From a virus (Duplodnaviria > Heunggongvirae > Uroviricota > Caudoviricetes): DNA of 29,115 nucleotides. Both the position numbers and the translations under genes were made by a program. Below the pieces are notes generated by a model. It ran no database searches, was not told the origin of the DNA, and saw nothing but the letters and a program-made list of their open reading frames with translations. This document shows, piece by piece, positions 1 to 25,500 of the stretch; position 1 is the stretch's first letter, and each line of letters starts with the position of its first letter. The stretch is taken from the IMG/VR virus record IMGVR_UViG_2547132281_000011, one strand, 5' to 3'.

Positions 1-573
1 TTACAACTTAGCTTGAGTTTGGAGTTCCTCTACAGGGTGATAACGATAAATCGTCGATATACCGATATCGTAAATAATTGCCAACTGTTTCCTGCTATAG
101 CCATTTTTGATCAGCCTTGCTATTTGTTCATGTTGCTCTTTTGTCAGTTTCGGACGGCGTCCGCCAATACGCCCCTGTGCACGTGCTGCCTCAAGTCCGG
201 CCAGTGTTCGTTCAACTATTAATTCGCGCTCCATTTCCGCTAAAGCCCCCATGACGTGAAAAAAGAAACGTCCCATGGGTGTTGACGTATCAATGCTGTC
301 TGTAAGACTACGGAAATTAACCCCTTTTCCCCGCAGTTCCTCAATAAGAGTGATAAGGTGTTTCATGCTTCTGCCCAGCCTATCCAGCTTCCAGACAACG
401 AGCGTATCTCCTTCTGATAACGTTCTGAGCAGCTTTTTCAATCCCGGTCGGGCTGACTTTGTTCCGCTGATTTTATCCTCAAAAATCAGTTCACATCCTG
501 CGCAGTTCAGTGCGTTTCGTTGTAAATCTGTATTCTGGTCATTTGTTGACACACGAATGTAGCCAATTTGCAT
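1..573 (-). CDS. gin: Serine-recombinase DNA invertase (Gin/Hin/Pin/Cin family), 190 aa
   Basis: N-terminal small serine recombinase motif GYIRVSTNDQ and C-terminal HTH in the translation; AGAGGA RBS before ATG at 573; sits beside an invertible tail-fibre segment as gin does in Mu. Confidence 0.9.
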   Translation of the reverse strand: MQIGYIRVSTNDQNTDLQRNALNCAGCELIFEDKISGTKSARPGLKKLLRTLSEGDTLVVWKLDRLGRSMKHLITLIEELRGKGVNFRSLTDSIDTSTPMGRFFFHVMGALAEMERELIVERTLAGLEAARAQGRIGGRRPKLTKEQHEQIARLIKNGYSRKQLAIIYDIGISTIYRYHPVEELQTQAKL

Positions 574-625
574 GAAAAATATCCTCTTTGTTTTGTTAAA
601 AATACATAGCTGGTATAGGTGGGAG

Positions 626-653
626 TTAAGACGAAAACGTTGGTTTGGGAGAA
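626..653. repeat. Invertase crossover site (gix/hix-like), gin-proximal copy
   Basis: TTAAGACGAAAACG-TT-GGTTTGGGAGAA; inner half-site plus flanking bases is an exact inverted copy of TTCTCCCAAACCAA at 2445-2458; lies between gin start and the segment, overlapping the likely gin promoter. Confidence 0.75.
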
Positions 654-1001
654 GCGGCGAAAAGGGATGTGGGTACAGGAGAAAATCAGATACCGGATAT
701 GTCAGCCTGGAAAAGAAATCCGAGTTCTAATCGCTGGAGAAAATTGCCTGATGGAACCATCATTCAAATGGGAATATCAGCATCAGGGCCATTAGGCTCA
801 CCTGTAAATATCACCCTGCCGATATCTTTCAGCAATACCAATTATTGTGTTGTTGCATCGTACGATAATGCACGGTCAGGTGTGTCAACAATGGTTAGTT
901 TTGCAGCATTACCTGTTTCACCATCGCAATTTTCCCTGATGTCATCTGTGACTGAGCAAGGAATAAATCCTTTTGCTTACTGGATTGCTTTTGGAGATTG
1001 A
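642..1001 (+). CDS. Alternative tail-fibre variable C-terminal domain (S'v-like); no independent start, expressed only after inversion fuses it to the constant N-terminus
   Basis: Frame reads GLGEAAKRD... directly from the crossover core (ORF track start is a TTG at 645); same GLGE junction as residues FVKNLGLGEGS of the fibre gene at 2445-2470. Confidence 0.65.
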   Translation, partial: GLGEAAKRDVGTGENQIPDMSAWKRNPSSNRWRKLPDGTIIQMGISASGPLGSPVNITLPISFSNTNYCVVASYDNARSGVSTMVSFAALPVSPSQFSLMSSVTEQGINPFAYWIAFGD

Positions 1002-1004
1002 TAA

Positions 1005-1424
1005 ATGGACAGATACTTCTATTCACAAAAAGAAAATGGTTTTTTTACCGATTTAAATAAAGCACCTTCAGATGCTGTTGAGATAACCACGGATGAATGG
1101 CTATCACTACTGGATGGACAGGATAATGGCATGAAAATAGTCAGCAATCAGGAGGGATATCCGGTTTTGACAGAGCAACCACCTTTATCAAAAGAAAACC
1201 TTATTGCATTGGCAGAGTTGAAAAAAGGAAAACTTATTAATGAAGCCAACGAGCACATGAACAGCAGGCAATGGCCTGGTAAAGCGGCTATTGGTCGTCT
1301 GAAAGGTGAGGAACTGGCGCAATATAATTTGTGGCTGGATTATCTGGACGCACTGGAACTGGTTGATTCCTCCAGTGCGCCAGATATTGAATGGCCTACG
1401 CCTCCGGCAGTTCAGGCCAGATGA
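1005..1424 (+). CDS. Tail fibre assembly protein, alternative copy (U'-like)
   Basis: 139 aa; C-terminus LWLDYLDALELVDSSSAPDIEWPTPP parallels the C-terminus of the opposite-strand assembly protein (LNAVLDYIDAVTATDTSTAPDVIWPELP); ATG 1005 follows S'v stop. Confidence 0.7.
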   Translation: MDRYFYSQKENGFFTDLNKAPSDAVEITTDEWLSLLDGQDNGMKIVSNQEGYPVLTEQPPLSKENLIALAELKKGKLINEANEHMNSRQWPGKAAIGRLKGEELAQYNLWLDYLDALELVDSSSAPDIEWPTPPAVQAR

Positions 1425-1998
1425 CATCCGGCGCGGTGCTGGTATCTGTTGCCGTCACCGCGTCAATGTAATCCAGCACAGCGTTAAGTCGGGTGGTTTC
1501 TGCCTGCGTCAGCTTCCGTCCGGCCTGTAGTTTCAGTTGAATCAGACTAATGGAAGCCATTGCTGCATCAATAAGTGACTGGCGCAGTGCTTCTGCCGCG
1601 TCTACTGCGGCATTATGCTGTGCCTCAGTATCTGTCACCCATTTCTCACCATCCCATTTATCGTATGGCGTTAACGGGGCGATAGTGGTTGTATTATCAG
1701 GGTAATCACCCGGAGCTGTGATTTCTTTTGATTCTCCTGTTTCGGTGCTAAAGACGATTTCACCGCGATGGTCTGGCACATATTCCCATGAGTTAAAATC
1801 TGCAGATCGGCAGATTGCATAACCAGTTTTGTATGAGCCAGGAGCATCTAAACAGGAACATGCCGGAATGCCGACACCCACAGCAAGATATTCAGTTGAT
1901 GTGAAAATATATTCCCGTGTTTCACCATCATAGTTATAAACCGTAATATTTCCTGCCTGGGTGGCGATAAATTCGTTATTTAATACAGCGTAATCCAT
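1396..1998 (-). CDS. Tail fibre assembly protein (U-like), currently in expressed orientation
   Basis: 200 aa immediately downstream of the tail-fibre gene (TAATG overlap at 1998); conserved Tfa-type C-terminus; 3' end overlaps U' convergently by 29 bp. Confidence 0.75.
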   Translation of the reverse strand: MDYAVLNNEFIATQAGNITVYNYDGETREYIFTSTEYLAVGVGIPACSCLDAPGSYKTGYAICRSADFNSWEYVPDHRGEIVFSTETGESKEITAPGDYPDNTTTIAPLTPYDKWDGEKWVTDTEAQHNAAVDAAEALRQSLIDAAMASISLIQLKLQAGRKLTQAETTRLNAVLDYIDAVTATDTSTAPDVIWPELPEA

Positions 1999-2945
1999 TA
2001 TGCAGCCCTCACGATATAATTAAAGGCAATGTTTCGAGGACGGTTTTCGTTTGCAGTTGGAACAACTCTGGAAGCATCAAATGTTACTCGCTTTGCATAA
2101 CCACCTTTAATTGAATCAGATGAAGCATCTCCGATGACGCTGGTTGTAAAAACGCCAGAATCAGAAGGATAGGTATTAAACCTGACATCTACTAATGCAC
2201 CAATTATATTTCGAATGGCATCGCCCTGTGATGCAAGCAAGCTACGGTTAGTATCAATTCCTCTTCCGTCATCCCAGCCACGAATAAACTCACCACGTAA
2301 ATCAGGTAATTTATTTGTCGGGTAAGCCTTTGCCAGTTCCGGGTATTCTTCAGCAGAAAAAGCCGCACCATTGCATTTCAGCCAGCCTGTTGGCGGAGTG
2401 GCTGAAGGCCACGGAACAGGGACACCAACAGGTAATGCAGAGCCTTCTCCCAAACCAAGGTTTTTGACAAACAGCGCAGGATCAGGAATATCTGCGCCGT
2501 TCTGGTCTTTAGCCAGCTTTTCCGCCAGCTTGTTCAGTACCGTAGTCGCAAAGTTTGGATCATTACCGAGAGCGTCAGCCAGCTCTTTAAGCGTATCCAG
2601 TGTCTCAGGGGCGCTGCCTGCAAGCGCCGCAAGTGCTTTGGCCACAAACTCCGTCGTCGCCAGCTTTTTGCTGTTATCGCCATTTGCAGGTGTAGGTGCT
2701 GTTGGTGTGCCGGTGAATGCCGGACTGGCTTTCGGTGCATACTGGGCATGCGGGTCTGCTGCCGCGATGTGTTTCGCAAGGTCAGCCCCGCCTTTTTCAA
2801 CCTGTTGCTTCAGGTACAGCGTGCGGCTGGCCAGTTGTTTACCCTGACGGTTAGAAATTCCGTCAGGCCCGCCCAGAACGGGGTCAGAGACCTCAATCTG
2901 GTAGATGCCGTCTTCCCACTGTGGGGTTTCAGGTAGATTTGCCAT
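1998..2945 (-). CDS. Tail fibre protein (S-like): constant N-terminal part (2945 to ~2458) plus currently joined variable C-terminal part (~2457 to 1998)
   Basis: 315 aa, Ala/Gly/Pro-rich fibre-like N-terminus; crossover site lies inside the gene at codons FVKNLGLGE; followed by assembly-protein gene. Confidence 0.8.
   Translation of the reverse strand: MANLPETPQWEDGIYQIEVSDPVLGGPDGISNRQGKQLASRTLYLKQQVEKGGADLAKHIAAADPHAQYAPKASPAFTGTPTAPTPANGDNSKKLATTEFVAKALAALAGSAPETLDTLKELADALGNDPNFATTVLNKLAEKLAKDQNGADIPDPALFVKNLGLGEGSALPVGVPVPWPSATPPTGWLKCNGAAFSAEEYPELAKAYPTNKLPDLRGEFIRGWDDGRGIDTNRSLLASQGDAIRNIIGALVDVRFNTYPSDSGVFTTSVIGDASSDSIKGGYAKRVTFDASRVVPTANENRPRNIAFNYIVRAA
2445..2470. repeat. Invertase crossover site (gix/hix-like) inside the tail-fibre gene at the constant/variable junction
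   Basis: TTCTCCCAAACC-AA-GGTTTTTGACAA: two 12-bp imperfect inverted half-sites around a 2-bp core, the organisation of hix/gix sites; 14-nt inverted match to 640-653. Confidence 0.8.
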
Positions 2946-3543: not shown

Positions 3544-3720
3544 TTAAGAGTGATTGCCGTACAGTTTGCCCATTCGTTTTAAGGCATTCTGGCGTTCCTG
3601 CAGACGGCGGGAGGTATCACCAAGGGAATCAAGGGCGCGTCGGGTGCCACTGACGGCTGAGCGGAAGCTGCTCCCGACAATGCCGCCAATAATGACGCCG
3701 ACTGAAAATTCACTGGCCAC
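3544..3720 (-). pseudogene. Possible 5' remnant of the tape-measure gene (58 codons from GTG 3720) left by an internal deletion
   Basis: Frame after the chaperone genes reads VASEFSVGVIIGGIVGSSFRSAVSGTRRALDSLGDTSRRLQERQNALKRMGKLYGNHS, compositionally like a tape-measure N-terminus; GAGGA upstream of GTG; stops 18 bp before the gpI-like gene. Confidence 0.3.
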
Positions 3721-3812
3721 GGTGGCTATCCTCTGAAAGCAAAAAAACGGAAGGGAAGTGTCTGAACCCCATGCAGAACAGCCGCGACTGGCGGCTGTTA
3801 AGTGATACGTTG

Positions 3813-4070
3813 TTACTGATTGTCGCCGAACTCGCTTTTGATTTGCTCTTCAGCCTGCTCCAGCCACATCTCCAGATCGTCAGTATCGAGGGCATCAATC
3901 TCCCCCGGCTGAAACCTGAACCATCTCGCCAGCAGGCCCTGCGCCTGCATCAGTGTTTTTGTCGCTCTTGCCCAGCCCAGTGATTTTCTGAAATCGTTTC
4001 TGCAGCTCCATATAGTCGGCAAGATCCATGTTATCGAGGTCTTCCGGGAGGATACCGGTGCTACGGGCAA
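3813..4070 (-). CDS. Overlapping alternate-frame ORF of the tail assembly chaperone (E'/GT-type extension reached by frameshift)
   Basis: Overlaps the last 176 nt of the chaperone gene and extends 82 nt past its stop; lies in the +1 (equivalently -2) frame relative to it. Confidence 0.5.
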   Translation of the reverse strand: MPVAPVSSRKTSITWILPTIWSCRNDFRKSLGWARATKTLMQAQGLLARWFRFQPGEIDALDTDDLEMWLEQAEEQIKSEFGDNQ

Positions 4071-4236
4071 TCAGTGGTTCGTCCCAGTCTGCCGGGTCTT
4101 TGTTGATTTTGCGCACCTGCTTCAGGTCTTTTACTGTCAGGCGTTTCAGTTCAATCTGTTCAATTCTGGTACCTGCAGCAGTGGTGAAAGGATAAGACAG
4201 CGTAAAAGTATCGGACTGGGTCTGTGACATGATCAT
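3895..4236 (-). CDS. Tail assembly chaperone (P2 gpE / lambda G-like)
   Basis: 113 aa, acidic C-terminal half, positioned after sheath and tube with an overlapping alternate-frame ORF. Confidence 0.6.
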   Translation of the reverse strand: MIMSQTQSDTFTLSYPFTTAAGTRIEQIELKRLTVKDLKQVRKINKDPADWDEPLIARSTGILPEDLDNMDLADYMELQKRFQKITGLGKSDKNTDAGAGPAGEMVQVSAGGD

Positions 4237-4291: not shown

Positions 4292-4320
4292 GGAGATTAA
4301 GAAGAAGGGGCCGGAGCCCC
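4292..4320 (-). terminator. Putative intrinsic terminator after the sheath-tube transcription unit
   Basis: GC hairpin GGGGC-tccg-GCCCC (minus-strand sense, plus-strand 4307-4320) followed on the minus strand by TTCTTCTTAATCTCC. Confidence 0.4.
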
Positions 4321-4327
4321 TGTGATG

Positions 4328-4609
4328 TCAGCAAGTGCGAAAACCCTTGCAGTTACGCAGGAAAGCGATGAGAAGCGCCTTTCCCTCAGATTTGCCGATG
4401 CCGGAGAACCAGTGGTCGGGCGGCTCCCATGCTTCAATCAAATCGGCCAGTTTGCGGGCCTTTGAACGTGTGCAGTCAATCGGGTCATTGGTTTTACGGG
4501 TATTAAAAAGGGTTTCCACCCCCGGAATATCAAGGAGGGTAAACCACGTACCATTTGACATGCCCAGTGACGCACATCGCCCTCCTTTGTCAGTCAGTTC
4601 AACACTCAC
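4328..4609 (-). CDS. Hypothetical protein downstream of the tube gene
   Basis: 93-aa ORF starting 3 nt after tube stop; no recognisable motif. Confidence 0.4.
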   Translation of the reverse strand: MSVELTDKGGRCASLGMSNGTWFTLLDIPGVETLFNTRKTNDPIDCTRSKARKLADLIEAWEPPDHWFSGIGKSEGKALLIAFLRNCKGFRTC

Positions 4610-4611
4610 CG

Positions 4612-5133
4612 TCAGCCCCCGATATTGATCCGATAGTCAGTCAGTTGATCAACGCCACCGACGCGGAAGATGTTGGCCAGATAGTCCAGTTGCAGCAACT
4701 CTTCACCATCCAGTACCTGTCTGATATACGTGCAGGTGAAGCTACTGGAGAACTCGGCGTTCTCGTGCTGTTTAAACGTCCCCAGCGGGTTCTTCTTGAA
4801 CATAATTGTCAGGAAGGTGACCAGCGGGATTTCGTCGATCAGCCCCTGCGAGCTGTAGCGCTGGACGCTGGAGCGACACTGCAGCGCCAGCGACTTGTAC
4901 GGGTTCGCGGCAGACAGCATCGCATCGCGGTAAAAGCTGTTCCATTTGATTTCGCCTTCCAGTTTGTCAAAACCAGCCGGGAGTTCCACCTTACCCACCA
5001 TCCCCAGTGCCTTGTGTTCCTGCATAATCATGGAGACATCGGGGAGTTTAACCTCCTCAGCCCGTCCCAGCAGGTTAGTACCATCCAGATAGATGTTGGC
5101 ATTCGTGATTCGGTTTATCTCAATCTTTGACAT
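4612..5133 (-). CDS. Tail tube protein
   Basis: 173 aa directly after sheath (1-nt overlap); size and position as P2 FII / Mu M. Confidence 0.7.
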   Translation of the reverse strand: MSKIEINRITNANIYLDGTNLLGRAEEVKLPDVSMIMQEHKALGMVGKVELPAGFDKLEGEIKWNSFYRDAMLSAANPYKSLALQCRSSVQRYSSQGLIDEIPLVTFLTIMFKKNPLGTFKQHENAEFSSSFTCTYIRQVLDGEELLQLDYLANIFRVGGVDQLTDYRINIGG

Positions 5134-6560
5134 CAGTTGCCCCCTTTCAGGGTTAACAGGTATTCCGAGGTGATCTCAGTCTCAAACGTCAGTCGCTCCA
5201 GCGGCGGTGGTGGCGTATATTTGTAGCTCAGCAACAGGTGCCCGGCGGCCAGCTCCGTTTCCGGATTGCGGGCCGGATCAAACCAGCAACGGAAGCCCAG
5301 TACCGCGCCATCACCAGTCATTTTGCGACCGTAGGCGTTGACCGACTCCGTCAGTGCATCAATCAGCGCCTGAGTAATCGGCATGTCGATGTACTGCTGG
5401 CTGAAGTAACGAATGGACTCATTGATCACATCACCGGTGCGGCGAACGTTCTCAAAGTTACGCATATGGGTGACCGTTGGCCATGCTGCCGTCCGGTTAC
5501 CCCACAGACGAAGGCCGCTGCCGTAACTGCTGAATACCGTGGTGATCCCCTGTTCGTTAAGCAGGTTCACCTCGCTCTGCGGATCGTCAATCATTGCCGA
5601 CAGCTGGCGCTCCACGCCGGTGATCCCCAGAATTTCCTGATTTGAGGATGACCACCAGTACCCTTTGTCCAGGTCGACTTTGGCACGCAGGCCCGCCGCA
5701 CGCTGGCTCAGTGGCTCCAGACGTTCCGTGTTCGTCACCGGGTCATATACCTTCACATGCGGGTAGCACAGGCGGACACGGTCAGAGCTGGTATTAAAGT
5801 TAATGGTGCCTTCCGGGCCTCGTCCCGCCAGAGCCTGCGCAAAAGTGGTACCAACCGGCGCATCAATATAGGTTACTGCTCCCAGTTTCTCAGCCATGGC
5901 GATAAGCTCAACCGAGACGCTGTTCTGGGTGCAGAATACCGGAGCAATCAGGATTTTGGCGAAGTAGCCAAACAGGTTAAAACTGTCGTTAAGCAGCTTC
6001 ATGCCGGTACGGTTGCCTGCAGCGTTAACGGTACCGATGATATCAGCCGGGGTGACTTTGGTCGGATCAGCATAGTTATAGCTGGCCTTCACCGTTGCAT
6101 CTGCAGCAATGCTTTTACCCAGGTTAGTAATCACCCCGGTCTGTGCATCAAGCGAGTAGTCCTGACCTTCAACATAAGGCTGACCGTCGCTGTCCGGTTT
6201 CAGTACCAGCTGCGCGACCACCGGATTAGCCAGCCGGGCTCTGCCTGTCGCCTTGTCGAACGACACATTCTCACTGACCACAGCGGTTTTATGCACAGAC
6301 GGATCGAGTACGTTAATGACCAGAACGGTGCCTGCACCATGGTCATAAATCGCATCCAGCGCCTGTGGAATGGTAAAGCCGGTGAACTGGCTGCCAAATG
6401 CCGCAGCGTCTTTCTCAGACAGGCACTGTACCAGCGTATTGACATCCCCCATTGGTGCGGTACCAATCAGGCCAATAACGGCAGATTTCACCGTTTTAAC
6501 CGGGCGGGCACCGTTTTCCACTTCAATGGTTTCCGGACCATGCAGATAGTTAGCTGACAT
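5133..6560 (-). CDS. Contractile tail sheath protein
   Basis: 475 aa, N-terminus MSANYLHGPETIEVENGARPVKTVKSAVIGLIGTA resembles the Mu L sheath N-terminus as recalled; followed by tube gene. Confidence 0.8.
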   Translation of the reverse strand: MSANYLHGPETIEVENGARPVKTVKSAVIGLIGTAPMGDVNTLVQCLSEKDAAAFGSQFTGFTIPQALDAIYDHGAGTVLVINVLDPSVHKTAVVSENVSFDKATGRARLANPVVAQLVLKPDSDGQPYVEGQDYSLDAQTGVITNLGKSIAADATVKASYNYADPTKVTPADIIGTVNAAGNRTGMKLLNDSFNLFGYFAKILIAPVFCTQNSVSVELIAMAEKLGAVTYIDAPVGTTFAQALAGRGPEGTINFNTSSDRVRLCYPHVKVYDPVTNTERLEPLSQRAAGLRAKVDLDKGYWWSSSNQEILGITGVERQLSAMIDDPQSEVNLLNEQGITTVFSSYGSGLRLWGNRTAAWPTVTHMRNFENVRRTGDVINESIRYFSQQYIDMPITQALIDALTESVNAYGRKMTGDGAVLGFRCWFDPARNPETELAAGHLLLSYKYTPPPPLERLTFETEITSEYLLTLKGGN

Positions 6561-24333: not shown

Positions 24334-25500
24334 ATGCTGGTACTGAAGCAGCAACTGAAAGAGGCCCGTATTCCACAGGCGGTGGTGGCGAGAGCTGTCG
24401 ATGTTTCTGAGGCCACGCTGGCCCAGATTGTGAATCATAACGCGTGGCCCCGCACCAGCCCCGGAGAAGTGCGCCGGCGTCTTGCGTCCTGGCTGGAAAG
24501 TCAGGGGATTGATACAACGAAGAGTTTTGATGCTGTACAGGGCGCGGCCACGCCCCGTACAGCGGGTACCACAGATAAAACGAGCCTCAGTGAGGAAGAG
24601 AATATGTTACTCAAAAAACAGGTGTTATTTCCAGCAACCAAAAAAGCGTTTGGTCTTTTCCGTGACCCGTTCGCCGACGAAGCCATGCAGGGTTCTGATG
24701 ATGTGTTCACCACCCCGGACATTCGCTACGTGCGTGAGGCGCTGTACCAGACAGCCCGTCATGGTGGGTTTATGGCCGTCATCGGTGAGTCCGGTGCGGG
24801 TAAATCCACGCTGCGCCGCGACCTGACTGAACGTATCAACCGCGAGAATGCGCCGGTAATTGTTATCGAGCCATACATCATCGCTATGGAAGACAACGAT
24901 GTGAAAGGGAAAACCCTGAAGGCAGCAGCTATTGCCGAAGCCATTATCAGTACCATCGCACCACTGGAAAGCATCAGACGCAGTCAGGACGCCCGTTTTC
25001 GCCAGTTGCATCGCGTCCTGAAAGACAGCAGCCAGGCGGGGTTCAGCCACGTTCTGGTGATTGAGGAGGCCCACAGTCTGCCCATTCCGACACTGAAACA
25101 CCTCAAACGCTTTTTTGAGCTGGAGTCCGGTTTCAAAAAACTGCTGTCCATCGTGCTGATTGGCCAGCCGGAACTGGCGACAAAACTGTCTGAACGCAAT
25201 ATGGAAGTCCGTGAAGTCGTTCAGCGCTGTGAGGTGGTCGAACTTCTGCCTCTGGACAATAACCTTGAAGAATTTCTGACGTTCAAACTGCAACGGGCCG
25301 GTAAACAGCTGACGGACATTATGGACGCCGGTGCAGTGGATGCCATACGTGCCCGCCTGAGCAATCCGGGAAGTCACCGTAAAAATATGGTCAGCCTGCT
25401 GTATCCGCTGGCCGTCAGTAACCTGGTAATAGCCGCCATGAATCTGGCCGCTGAAATCGGGGTTCCACAGGTCAACGCTGACGTTGTCAAAGGGGTTTAA
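24334..25500 (+). CDS. Transposition AAA+ ATPase (MuB/TniB-like)
   Basis: Walker A GESGAGKST; start ATG 24334 behind GAGGAGGG, just after transposase stop (ORF-track start 24295 is an upstream extension). Confidence 0.85.
   Translation: MLVLKQQLKEARIPQAVVARAVDVSEATLAQIVNHNAWPRTSPGEVRRRLASWLESQGIDTTKSFDAVQGAATPRTAGTTDKTSLSEEENMLLKKQVLFPATKKAFGLFRDPFADEAMQGSDDVFTTPDIRYVREALYQTARHGGFMAVIGESGAGKSTLRRDLTERINRENAPVIVIEPYIIAMEDNDVKGKTLKAAAIAEAIISTIAPLESIRRSQDARFRQLHRVLKDSSQAGFSHVLVIEEAHSLPIPTLKHLKRFFELESGFKKLLSIVLIGQPELATKLSERNMEVREVVQRCEVVELLPLDNNLEEFLTFKLQRAGKQLTDIMDAGAVDAIRARLSNPGSHRKNMVSLLYPLAVSNLVIAAMNLAAEIGVPQVNADVVKGV

What the first reader, a model, noticed from the sequence alone, without database searches (positions are those of the whole stretch)
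3813..4236. Tail chaperone extension ORF lies in the +1/-2 frame, not the canonical -1 frame
The overlapping alternate-frame ORF typical of tail chaperone genes (P2 E/E', lambda G/GT) is present, but the -1 frame is closed by a stop within 12 codons of the overlap while the +1 frame is open for 85 codons. The fusion product would need a +1 or -2 shift, which is less common.
Basis: partly seen in the sequence, partly recalled or inferred. Interest (0 to 1): 0.4.

Follow-up and report, generated by a model that had tools for sequence, protein, structure and literature searches.

The report
Phage tail chaperone +1 frameshift site
A prophage tail-assembly chaperone gene carries its usual hidden extension in the +1 reading frame rather than the common -1 frame, apparently reached by a one-base forward ribosome slip at a strictly conserved CGA-UUU-C; this is an unannotated but expected variant of a well-known phage trick.

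Summary
On the minus strand, a P2-E/Mu-gp41-type tail assembly chaperone gene (4236..3895) lies between the tail tube and tape-measure genes. It is overlapped by an ORF (4070..3813) in the +1/-2 frame that encodes a P2 E'-like domain.

Among 120 related loci, the E' domain sits in the +1 frame in 113. All 113 have TTT_C at the same codon (window 3993..3990), and nearly all have the rare codon CGA just before it. Other Phe and Arg codons in the gene vary freely. Codon-position variability changes phase exactly at this site. Alternate-frame stop codons in homologues confine the shift to between 3 codons upstream and 10 codons downstream. No downstream RNA structure is conserved.

The most likely mechanism is a +1 ribosomal slip of tRNA-Phe from UUU to UUC. 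This would give a 140-aa fusion collinear with the 142-aa P2 E+E'. UUU_Y is a documented +1 shift-prone site. Shifts of -1, -2 (Mu) and +1 are all already known for phage tail chaperones, so this is a new member of a known kind.

Public annotations miss the fusion: PGAP calls two separate genes, and the BcepMu record uses a different model. In this window the tape-measure-to-baseplate region is deleted, so the system is probably inactive here. There is no protein-level evidence.

The parts
3895..4236 (-). Tail assembly chaperone gene (P2 gpE / Mu gp41 / lambda gpG analogue), 113 aa plus TGA stop. Only residues 1-82 would be shared with the fusion product.
   Evidence: PF10109 Phage_TAC_7 E=1.5e-22, residues 10-84. 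phrog_166 'tail protein' E=1.7e-32. PGAP names it 'phage tail assembly protein' in identical E. coli loci.
3990..3996 (-). Proposed +1 shift site CGA_TTT_C. It comprises Arg81 codon CGA 3996..3994, Phe82 codon TTT 3993..3991, and C at 3990.
   Evidence: TTT_C is present in 113/113 loci with the +1 arrangement. Among 85 unique DNAs, TTT occurs in 85/85 and CGA in 81/82, while another conserved Phe is TTC 62/TTT 17 and another invariant Arg is CGC 65/CGT 14/CGG 3/CGA 3. CGA is 5.7% of Arg codons in the window's ORFs. The phase of codon variability switches here.
3813..3989 (-). E'-like extension in the +1 frame, read after the shift: 58 codons (RKSLGW...EFGDNQ) plus TAA stop 3815..3813.
   Evidence: PF06528 Phage_P2_GpE, profile positions 4-36 of 37, E=0.003-0.006 for the window and 6e-6 for the best homologue. 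phrog_8286 E=3e-32. W88 is invariant 6 residues after the shift. The frame is open in all homologues.
3813..4070 (-). The mechanical +1-frame ORF as listed (85 codons from TTG). The part upstream of 3989 is probably not translated.
   Evidence: In homologues the +1 frame upstream of TTT carries stops as close as 3 codons away.
3902..3906 (-). G5 run (GCC_GGG_GGA) just before the chaperone stop. It resembles Mu's CGG_GGG_CGA site, but it is a mutational indel hot spot rather than the conserved shift site.
   Evidence: Many homologues have a 0-frame TAG upstream of it, or lack the run (CCG AGT GAG). One-base deletions here give in-frame fusions in databases.
3544..3720 (-). Remnant of the tape measure gene (58-aa ORF). 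The chaperone's client protein is truncated by a deletion in this window.
   Evidence: Homology to the intact prophage stops at 3579. The intact tape-measure gene is 2466 nt.
4612..5133 (-). Tail tube gene, upstream neighbour that defines the canonical gene order.
   Evidence: PF04985 Phage_tube E=2e-53.
5133..6560 (-). Tail sheath gene.
   Evidence: PF04984 and PF17482.

Best explanation
This is the tail assembly chaperone pair of a Bcepmuvirus-like (Mu-type head, P2-type tail) prophage. It is homologous to P2 E/E+E'.

Most ribosomes would translate the 113-aa chaperone in frame 0. A minority would shift +1 at CGA_UUU_C (window 3996..3990). In that event the peptidyl-tRNA-Phe (anticodon GAA), or the incoming Phe-tRNA, pairs with UUC instead of UUU, and translation continues with AGA AAA UCA... 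The product would be a 140-aa fusion of chaperone residues 1-82 and a 58-residue E' domain.

By analogy with lambda G/GT and P2 E/E+E', the shared N-terminal part would bind the tape measure protein and the E' part would recruit tube subunits. The slip frequency would set the ratio of the two products.

What is shown: gene identity, frame, conservation of the site, and selection on the +1 frame starting at the site. What is inferred: that the event is ribosomal, that it is +1 rather than -2, its efficiency, and the role of CGA (a weak I:A wobble codon sitting in the E or P site). In this particular window the tape-measure-to-baseplate genes are deleted, so the product probably has no function here.
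For: **Context and homology**
- The gene order is sheath, tube, chaperone, tape measure.
- The chaperone matches PF10109.
- The predicted +1 fusion matches PF10109 over residues 10-86 and PF06528 over 102-134. This is collinear with P2 E+E' (PF10109 7-85, PF06528 104-139) and nearly the same length, 140 versus 142 aa.

**Frame conservation**
- An E' HMM hits the +1 frame in 113 of 120 loci from Enterobacterales, Burkholderia, Ralstonia, Pandoraea, Pseudomonas and others.

**Locating the site**
- All 113 loci have TTT_C at the Phe82 column.
- Synonymous codons are frozen only there: TTT 85/85 and CGA 81/82, against free variation at other Phe and Arg codons and against background usage.
- A +1-frame TGA lies 3 codons upstream of TTT in six homologues: Ralstonia phage YO107_2, Pseudomonas phage Komp_PAO1_1, and four betaproteobacterial prophage loci (L116, Undibacterium, Pandoraea, Verminephrobacter). 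The earliest 0-frame stop lies 10 codons downstream.
- The position of the 0-frame stop varies among relatives while the +1 sequence stays constant.
- Nucleotide diversity by codon position switches at the site. Upstream, 0-frame position 3 is highest (0.32 versus 0.12 and 0.07). Downstream, +1-frame position 3 is highest (0.19 versus 0.07 and 0.08).
- An invariant Trp occurs 6 residues after the site in the +1 frame.

**Mechanism**
- UUU_Ynn is described as especially prone to +1 frameshifting in bacteria, and UCC_UUU_CGU is the influenza PA-X +1 cassette (PMC5009743). BcepMu itself has TCC_TTT_CGC.
- tRNA-Phe re-pairs perfectly with UUC. No re-pairing is possible 2 nt back, at GAU.
Against: - There is no protein, ribosome-profiling or reporter evidence. 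Everything rests on comparative sequence analysis.
- No stimulatory element was found. There is no conserved downstream structure (z=-0.04), no Shine-Dalgarno-like sequence just upstream, and the 0-frame A-site codon CAG is not rare.
- In the window, the first +1 codon is the rare AGA.
- The window's own PF06528 score is below Pfam's cutoff (16.5-17.4 bits against 23).
- No database protein has a hard-wired fusion at this junction.
- The 113 loci are phylogenetically related: 23 clusters at 90% identity, 8 at 70% and 3 at 50%. The counts overstate independence.
- CGA is not universal. BcepMu has TCC, phiE255 has GCC and Komp_PAO1_1 has GTG.
Confidence: 0.75

Rival explanations
1. Mu-like shift on the G5 run. 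Ribosomes slip -2 or +1 on GCC_GGG_GGA (3909..3901) just before the stop, as phage Mu does on CGG_GGG_CGA. The product would join nearly the whole 113-aa chaperone to only the last ~27 residues of the +1 ORF.
For: - The window has a G5 run four codons before the stop. Mu gp41 has G5 in the same frame relation, and Mu's extension is also in the +1/-2 frame (-2 in Mu per PMC5009743).
- Database variants with a 1-nt deletion in this run encode exactly such fusions (VSAG|EIDALD), so this product can exist.
Against: - Many close homologues have a 0-frame TAG 7 or about 21 codons upstream of the run, so frame-0 ribosomes never reach it.
- More distant homologues have CCG AGT GAG, with no run.
- The most conserved part of the +1 product (LLARWFRFQP, the start of the PF06528 match) lies upstream of the run. 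It shows +1-frame selection, which this model leaves untranslated.
Confidence: 0.06
2. No recoding. E' is translated independently as a small protein from an internal start in the +1 frame. This matches PGAP's annotation of a 45-aa 'GpE family phage tail protein' from ATG 3950, and the way phage genomes call phrog_8286.
For: PGAP annotates it as a separate CDS. A PHROG family of about 54-aa proteins matches it. An ATG exists at 3950 in the window.
Against: - The ATG is not conserved. It is shifted or absent in L072, L078 and the betaproteobacterial loci.
- No Shine-Dalgarno sequence precedes it.
- +1-frame conservation, including invariant W88, begins right after TTT_C, about 14 codons upstream of that ATG.
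- Synonymous freezing of CGA_TTT_C is unexplained by this model.
- The homologous P2 E' is made only as an E+E' fusion (PMC3091744).
Confidence: 0.08
3. Transcriptional slippage. RNA polymerase deletes one base (or adds two) to yield an mRNA subpopulation with the two frames fused.
For: It would give the same protein. Homopolymer indels do occur at the A5 and G5 runs in database variants.
Against: - The conserved element is only T3. Known transcriptional slippage needs runs of about 6-9 bases or more (established knowledge; PMC5009743).
- The A5 and G5 runs are not conserved, and in many homologues they lie downstream of 0-frame stops.
Confidence: 0.03
4. The overlapping ORF is a chance open frame or a decaying relic with no expressed product.
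For: Alternate-frame ORFs of this length are common in the window. This prophage copy has lost the tape measure and baseplate genes.
Against: The ORF is conserved with +1-frame purifying selection across 113 loci down to 26-50% chaperone identity. It is homologous to P2 E'. The chaperone region here is 100% identical to that of intact prophages.
Confidence: 0.03

Closest known systems
Phage P2 E / E+E' (-1 frameshift at T_TTT_TTG)
   Same: - Same Pfam families in the same order (PF10109 then PF06528).
- Same position between the tube and tape-measure genes.
- Near-identical product lengths: 113/140 aa here against 91/142 aa in P2.
- The shift lies at the C-terminal edge of the PF10109 domain.
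- No downstream RNA structure (PMC3091744).
   Different: - The direction is +1, not -1.
- The slip motif is CGA_TTT_C, not TTTTTTG.
- The site lies about 3 profile positions earlier (PF10109 position 74 against 77-78).
- Pairwise identity is low. BLASTP aligns only the E' core (E=0.023).
Phage Mu gp41 (-2 frameshift)
   Same: The extension lies in the same +1/-2 frame relative to the chaperone. Mu gp41 gives a just-sub-threshold PF10109 match (23.8 bits vs cutoff 25; its own Pfam family is PF23746 Gp41_Mu); the gene position is the same (PMC5009743).
   Different: - Mu slips on CGG_GGG_CGA near the end of the gene and is reported to shift -2.
- Here the conserved site is UUU_C, far from the stop, and -2 re-pairing is impossible there.
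- Mu's extension shows no PF06528 match.
Lambda G/GT
   Same: The logic is the same: two chaperone forms in a fixed ratio, produced by a programmed shift between the major tail gene and the tape measure gene (PMC5009743).
   Different: Lambda uses -1 at G_GGA_AAG. There is no detectable sequence homology, and lambda is a siphovirus.
UUU_Y +1 shift-prone sites (E. coli argI error site, Yersinia YopN-TyeA, influenza A PA-X UCC_UUU_CGU)
   Same: A UUU codon followed by a pyrimidine. tRNA-Phe can re-pair to UUC/UUU in the +1 frame without a stop codon or RNA structure (PMC5009743). BcepMu's TCC_TTT_CGC matches the first 8 nt of the PA-X cassette.
   Different: - The gene context is different.
- In PA-X a rare A-site codon is thought to help. 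Here the A-site codon (CAG, CAA, CTG, CGC or CGG) is not rare.
- The conserved feature here is instead the preceding CGA.
BcepMu gp41/gp42/gp43 as annotated (NC_005882)
   Same: gp41 is the homologue of the window chaperone, and gp42 is the homologue of the +1 ORF. Both have the same +1 frame relation and TTT_C.
   Different: The record treats gp42 as the lambda-G analogue and gp43 as its slippage extension. It does not model gp41+gp42 as a +1 fusion. The window has no gp43 equivalent, with only about 90 nt between the E' stop and the tape-measure start.

Membership tests
Frameshift-extended tail assembly chaperone pair (lambda G/GT, P2 E/E+E', Mu gp41 class) | Located between the major tail/tube gene and the tape measure gene | tested here: met
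   Tube 5133..4612, chaperone 4236..3895, tape-measure N-terminus 3720..3544. The intact relative shows a full tape-measure gene immediately downstream.
Frameshift-extended tail assembly chaperone pair (lambda G/GT, P2 E/E+E', Mu gp41 class) | Upstream ORF is a recognised tail assembly chaperone | tested here: met
   PF10109 E=1.5e-22, 79.8 bits against a cutoff of 25.
Frameshift-extended tail assembly chaperone pair (lambda G/GT, P2 E/E+E', Mu gp41 class) | Overlapping alternate-frame ORF that is conserved, lacks a conserved start of its own, and is homologous to a known extension domain | tested here: met
   - The +1 ORF is conserved in 113/120 loci.
- PF06528 is matched by 7/13 diverse members, best E=6e-6. 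The window copy is sub-threshold at 16.5-17.4 bits.
- The ATG is not conserved.
Frameshift-extended tail assembly chaperone pair (lambda G/GT, P2 E/E+E', Mu gp41 class) | Conserved slippery sequence within the overlap | tested here: met
   CGA_TTT_C is invariant or near-invariant, with frozen synonymous positions.
Frameshift-extended tail assembly chaperone pair (lambda G/GT, P2 E/E+E', Mu gp41 class) | Two proteins sharing an N-terminus are actually made, in a set ratio, and both are needed for tail assembly | not testable with these tools
   This needs proteomics, reporter assays or genetics.
Canonical -1 tail-chaperone frameshift (X_XXY_YYZ heptamer) | Extension lies in the -1 frame and is reached via a tandem-slippage heptamer | tested here: not met
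   The extension is in the +1 frame. The -1 frame has a stop 14 codons after the site, and its later open stretch has no homology. Relatives that do use -1 have G_GGT_TTT or A_AAG-type sites.
Mu-type -2 frameshift | Shift on a G-run near the end of the chaperone gene, adding one extra residue | tested here: not met
   The window has a G5 run, but homologues terminate frame 0 before it or lack it. +1-frame selection starts far upstream. Whether one residue is added cannot be tested here.
UUU_Y-type +1 ribosomal frameshift site | UUU in frame 0 followed by a pyrimidine, allowing tRNA-Phe to pair in the +1 frame | tested here: met
   TTT_C in 113/113 loci.
UUU_Y-type +1 ribosomal frameshift site | Slow or rare 0-frame A-site codon, or another stimulator | tested here: inconclusive
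   - The A-site codon is CAG, CAA, CTG, CAT, CGC or CGG and is not conserved as rare.
- No conserved structure was found.
- The conserved rare CGA upstream might be the stimulator, but this is inference.

The most novel reading that the evidence does not exclude
CGA_UUU_C could be a self-sufficient, structure-free +1 frameshift cassette in which the preceding CGA codon is itself the stimulator. CGA is decoded through a weak inosine:adenosine wobble. This would be a bacterial and phage counterpart of CGA-induced +1 frameshifting in yeast. The cassette would have replaced the -1 heptamer used by P2-type relatives at almost the same place, showing that frameshift direction can flip within one chaperone family while the protein products stay the same.
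Probability: 0.25. Interest if true: 0.5.

Novelty: new member of a known kind. Interest (0 to 1): 0.3.

Why it matters
- **Annotation.** Matching DNA is present in 636 of 5426 complete E. coli genomes. It also occurs in Bcepmuvirus-type phages of Burkholderia, Ralstonia and Pseudomonas. In every annotated record inspected (E. coli PGAP annotation and the KP12, PhiKM, phiE255, BcepMu and Komp_PAO1_1 records) the extension is called as a separate small gene (or not called at all), or modelled differently, as in BcepMu; no join or ribosomal slippage is annotated. A defined site (CGA_TTT_C) and junction (…KRF|RKS…) allow correct annotation.
- **Experiment.** The site offers a compact natural +1 cassette, without a stop codon or RNA structure, for testing what sets low-level +1 frameshifting in bacteria.
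- **Evolution.** It documents that homologous chaperones reach the same two-product outcome by -1 (P2, Vibrio and Pasteurella phages), +1 (this group) and -2 (Mu).

It does not change the general picture, which already allows all three directions.

Tried and rejected
- **G5 run as the slip site.** My first guess was the G5 run next to the stop, as in Mu. I rejected it after seeing that homologues terminate frame 0 before the run, and that substitutions upstream of it are synonymous in the +1 frame.
- **Downstream RNA stimulator.** RNAalifold on 18 diverse sequences found only a weak 6-pair helix about 60 nt downstream, with no covariation. The single-sequence fold gave z=-0.04.
- **Shine-Dalgarno-like stimulator just upstream.** None is conserved (read from the alignments).
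- **Natural hard-wired fusions to confirm the junction.** In-frame 138-aa proteins exist, but their junctions lie at A5 or G5 homopolymers or elsewhere, not at TTT_C. They look like indel variants or sequencing errors.
- **Independent start codon for E'.** It is not conserved.
- **-1 frame open stretch 3949..3710.** It has no Pfam or PHROG match.
- **Technical and literature dead ends.** The broad alignment A1 was too divergent for the genome scan, so I used A2 instead. Xu et al. 2004 and Christie et al. 2002 are not held in the library, so statements about them come through citing papers. NCBIfam gave no hits for either ORF.
- **Mu to P2 alignment of the extension region.** It is only marginal (E=0.049) and I did not rely on it.

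Full report
**1. What is at the coordinates**

On the minus strand the window encodes, in order:
- a tail sheath gene (6560..5133; PF04984 and PF17482);
- a tail tube gene (5133..4612; PF04985);
- a 93-aa DUF7739-like ORF (4609..4328);
- a 113-aa ORF at 4236..3895;
- a 58-aa ORF that is the N-terminus of a tape measure protein (3720..3544).

The 113-aa ORF matches Pfam PF10109, 'Phage tail assembly chaperone proteins, E, or 41 or 14', at E=1.5e-22. A second ORF at 4070..3813 overlaps it. The offsets 4236-4070=166 and 3895-3813=82 both equal 1 mod 3, so this ORF is in the +1 (equivalently -2) frame.

One detail is incomplete. The -1 frame has stops early in the overlap and at 3951..3949, but it is then open for 79 codons to 3710, past the chaperone stop. 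That stretch has no Pfam or PHROG match.

**2. What the +1 ORF is**

- Its C-terminal 45 residues match Pfam PF06528 (Phage_P2_GpE, the E' part of P2 E+E') over profile positions 4-36 of 37. The score is E=0.006, below the curated cutoff.
- Of 13 diverse homologous extensions, 7 match PF06528 at E<=0.01, and the best scores 6e-6.
- PGAP names the identical ORF 'GpE family phage tail protein' in E. coli genomes, but as a separate 45-aa gene.
- PHROGs holds it as phrog_8286, function unknown.

The locus belongs to a Mu-head/P2-tail prophage type. The close phage relatives are Klebsiella phage KP12 and Escherichia phage PhiKM, the latter classified as Bcepmuvirus. DNA matching the region is present in 636 of 5426 complete E. 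coli genomes.

**3. Where the frame change happens**

I collected 78 IMG/VR loci, 31 loci from GTDB species genomes, and annotated phages including phiE255, BcepMu, Komp_PAO1_1, a Ralstonia phage, a Salmonella prophage, a Vibrio phage and a Pasteurella phage.

*Frame of the extension.* An HMM of the E' core finds it in the +1 frame relative to the chaperone in 113 loci. It is in the -1 frame in 3 loci (Pasteurella phage AFS-2018a, Vibrio phage Valp1 and Volucribacter). It is in frame in 4 loci, which are indel variants.

*The 0-frame stop moves while the +1 sequence does not.* In the window the stop is TGA at 3895. In many relatives it is a TAG 7 codons earlier, and in L047/L048 a TAG about 21 codons earlier. 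The +1-frame sequence stays the same throughout. The shift therefore cannot be at the end of the gene.

*Stop codons bound the shift.* In six homologues (the Ralstonia phage, Pseudomonas phage Komp_PAO1_1 and four betaproteobacterial prophage loci) a +1-frame TGA lies only 3 codons upstream of the Phe82 codon. The earliest 0-frame stop is 10 codons downstream of it.

*Only one element in this interval is invariant.* That element is TTT_C at window 3993..3990. It is present in 113 of 113 loci and is preceded by CGA in 109.

*Synonymous positions are frozen only there.*

| Codon, among 85 unique DNAs | Usage |
|---|---|
| Phe82 | TTT 85/85 |
| Arg81 | CGA 81/82 |
| Another conserved Phe | TTC 62, TTT 17 |
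| Another invariant Arg | CGC 65, CGT 14, CGG 3, CGA 3 |

In the window's 28 long ORFs, CGA is 5.7% of Arg codons and TTT:TTC is 116:121.

*Codon-position diversity switches phase at the site (52 ungapped sequences).*

| Region | Most variable position | Diversity | Other two positions |
|---|---|---|---|
| Upstream of TTT_C | 0-frame position 3 | 0.32 | 0.12, 0.07 |
| Downstream of TTT_C | 0-frame position 1 (= +1-frame position 3) | 0.19 | 0.07, 0.08 |

The change occurs between 0 and +15 nt. In addition, a Trp six residues after the site in the +1 frame is invariant across all groups.

**4. Mechanism**

Joining frame 0 through Phe82 to the +1 frame gives a 140-aa protein. It carries PF10109 at residues 10-86 and PF06528 at 102-134. 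P2 E+E' is 142 aa, with PF10109 at 7-85 and PF06528 at 104-139. The two products are therefore collinear.

At CGA_UUU_C, tRNA-Phe (anticodon GAA) pairs with UUC at least as well as with UUU, so a one-base forward shift re-pairs perfectly. This could be either a P-site slip or out-of-frame A-site binding after CGA. A -2 shift would require pairing with GAU and is implausible. The two +1 routes give the same protein.

[quoted passage not shown] It names it as the apparent YopN-TyeA site and gives UCC_UUU_CGU as the influenza PA-X cassette. BcepMu has TCC_TTT_CGC.

I found no conserved downstream RNA structure and no upstream Shine-Dalgarno-like element. This fits a low-efficiency shift, which is what chaperone ratios require. 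The conserved rare CGA codon may weaken E- or P-site pairing through its I:A wobble; that is inference.

**5. Rivals**

- **Mu-like slip on the G5 run.** A slip on the G5 run at 3906..3902 is contradicted by homologues that stop before the run or lack it, and by +1-frame selection upstream of it.
- **Independent initiation.** The start codon is not conserved, and this model does not explain the frozen CGA_TTT_C.
- **Transcriptional slippage.** A T3 run is too short.
- **In-frame 138-aa database proteins.** These exist, but their junctions are at A5 or G5 homopolymers, not at TTT_C. They neither support nor refute the model.

**6. Comparison with what is known**

- The phenomenon is established. 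Tailed phages use -1, -2 or +1 shifts for the G/GT-type pair, and Mu uses -2 (PMC5009743).
- I confirmed in the Mu sequence that the extension lies in the +1/-2 frame after CGG_GGG_CGA.
- P2 uses -1 at TTTTTTG (PMC3091744).
- Among annotated SEA-PHAGES slippery sites (almost all in tail assembly chaperone genes), 2368 are backward and 350 forward (PMC10885494).
- In PF10109 profile coordinates, the +1 site here (position 74) lies about three positions before the -1 sites of P2 (77-78) and Vibrio phage Valp1 (G_GGT_TTT). Related chaperones thus shift in opposite directions at nearly the same place.
- I found no annotation of a +1 fusion for this lineage. PGAP lists two genes. The BcepMu record calls gp42 (our E' ORF) the lambda-G analogue, with gp43 as its slippage product. 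I could not read Xu et al. 2004 or Summer et al. 2004, so prior description cannot be excluded.

**7. Local caveat**

This copy of the prophage is deleted. Homology to an intact prophage runs from 9000 to 3579 and then resumes at the gpJ/gpI boundary about 7.5-8 kb further on. That removes nearly all of the tape measure gene together with the U, X, D, V, W and J homologues. The junction is in none of the 5426 complete E. coli genomes. The chaperone region itself is 100% identical to that of intact prophages, but here it has lost its client.

**8. Verdict**

The observation and interpretation are supported. The feature is a real, conserved +1-frame tail-chaperone extension with a well-defined putative shift site. 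It is a new, apparently unannotated member of a known kind. Confidence in the +1 UUU_C mechanism is about 0.75. Interest is 0.3.

Noticed in passing
window 3544-3720 and junction near 3579/3580: The prophage is a deletion derivative. The tape measure gene is reduced to a 58-aa ORF and is joined directly to the gpJ/gpI boundary region, with about 7.5-8 kb missing relative to the intact prophage in NZ_CP155528. No complete E. coli genome among 5426 contains this junction.
   Followed up: partly
window 3902-3906 (minus strand GCC_GGG_GGA); loci L076, L080; proteins P0003-P0005, P0007-P0009: The G5 run just before the chaperone stop recurs as a site of 1-nt deletions in public assemblies. These create in-frame chaperone-E' fusions with the junction VSAG|EIDALD. 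P0001 and P0002 are fused further upstream (...SDK|TLMQAQ at the A5 run in P0001...ESNQ|ALTQAQ in P0002). I did not resolve whether these are real variants or sequencing errors.
   Followed up: partly
window 3779-3797: A hairpin (CAGCCGC-loop-GCGGCTG) lies between the E' stop and the tape-measure start and is conserved in position across homologues. The loop varies, and in some loci (L046, L062, L066, L072) a different hairpin takes its place. It may be an attenuator or an RNA-stability element.
   Followed up: no
L087 (BcepMu NC_005882) 24602-25363: The GenBank record models gp42 (the homologue of the +1 E' ORF) as the lambda-G analogue and gp43 as its ribosomal-slippage extension. The comparative data here instead indicate a gp41+gp42 +1 fusion at TCC_TTT_CGC.
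   Followed up: partly
window 1-2000: A Gin/Pin/Hin-type serine invertase gene (573..1, minus strand) sits next to oppositely oriented ORFs resembling tail-fibre C-terminal and assembly genes (645..1424 plus strand; 1998..1396 minus strand). This suggests an invertible host-range segment. No convincing crossover inverted repeats were found with default settings.
   Followed up: partly
window 4328-4609 and 4306-4321: A 93-aa ORF with a weak DUF7739 match (E=1.7e-5, below cutoff) lies between the tube and chaperone genes. It is conserved in relatives as a 'hypothetical protein' and is followed by a terminator-like GC hairpin.
   Followed up: no
L085 (Pasteurella phage AFS-2018a), L090 (Vibrio phage Valp1), L120 (Volucribacter): These more distant PF10109 relatives keep the E' domain in the -1 frame. 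Their slip sites are canonical-looking: G_GGT_TTT in Valp1 and CAA_AAG_GGA_AAG in AFS-2018a. The records do not annotate a fusion.
   Followed up: partly
L106 (Apirhabdus apintestini), L102 (Erwinia tracheiphila): In these genomes the chaperone and E' parts are in the same frame because of indels. L106 has an indel upstream of the TTT_C position. They may be pseudogenes or hard-wired fusions and were not examined further.
   Followed up: no
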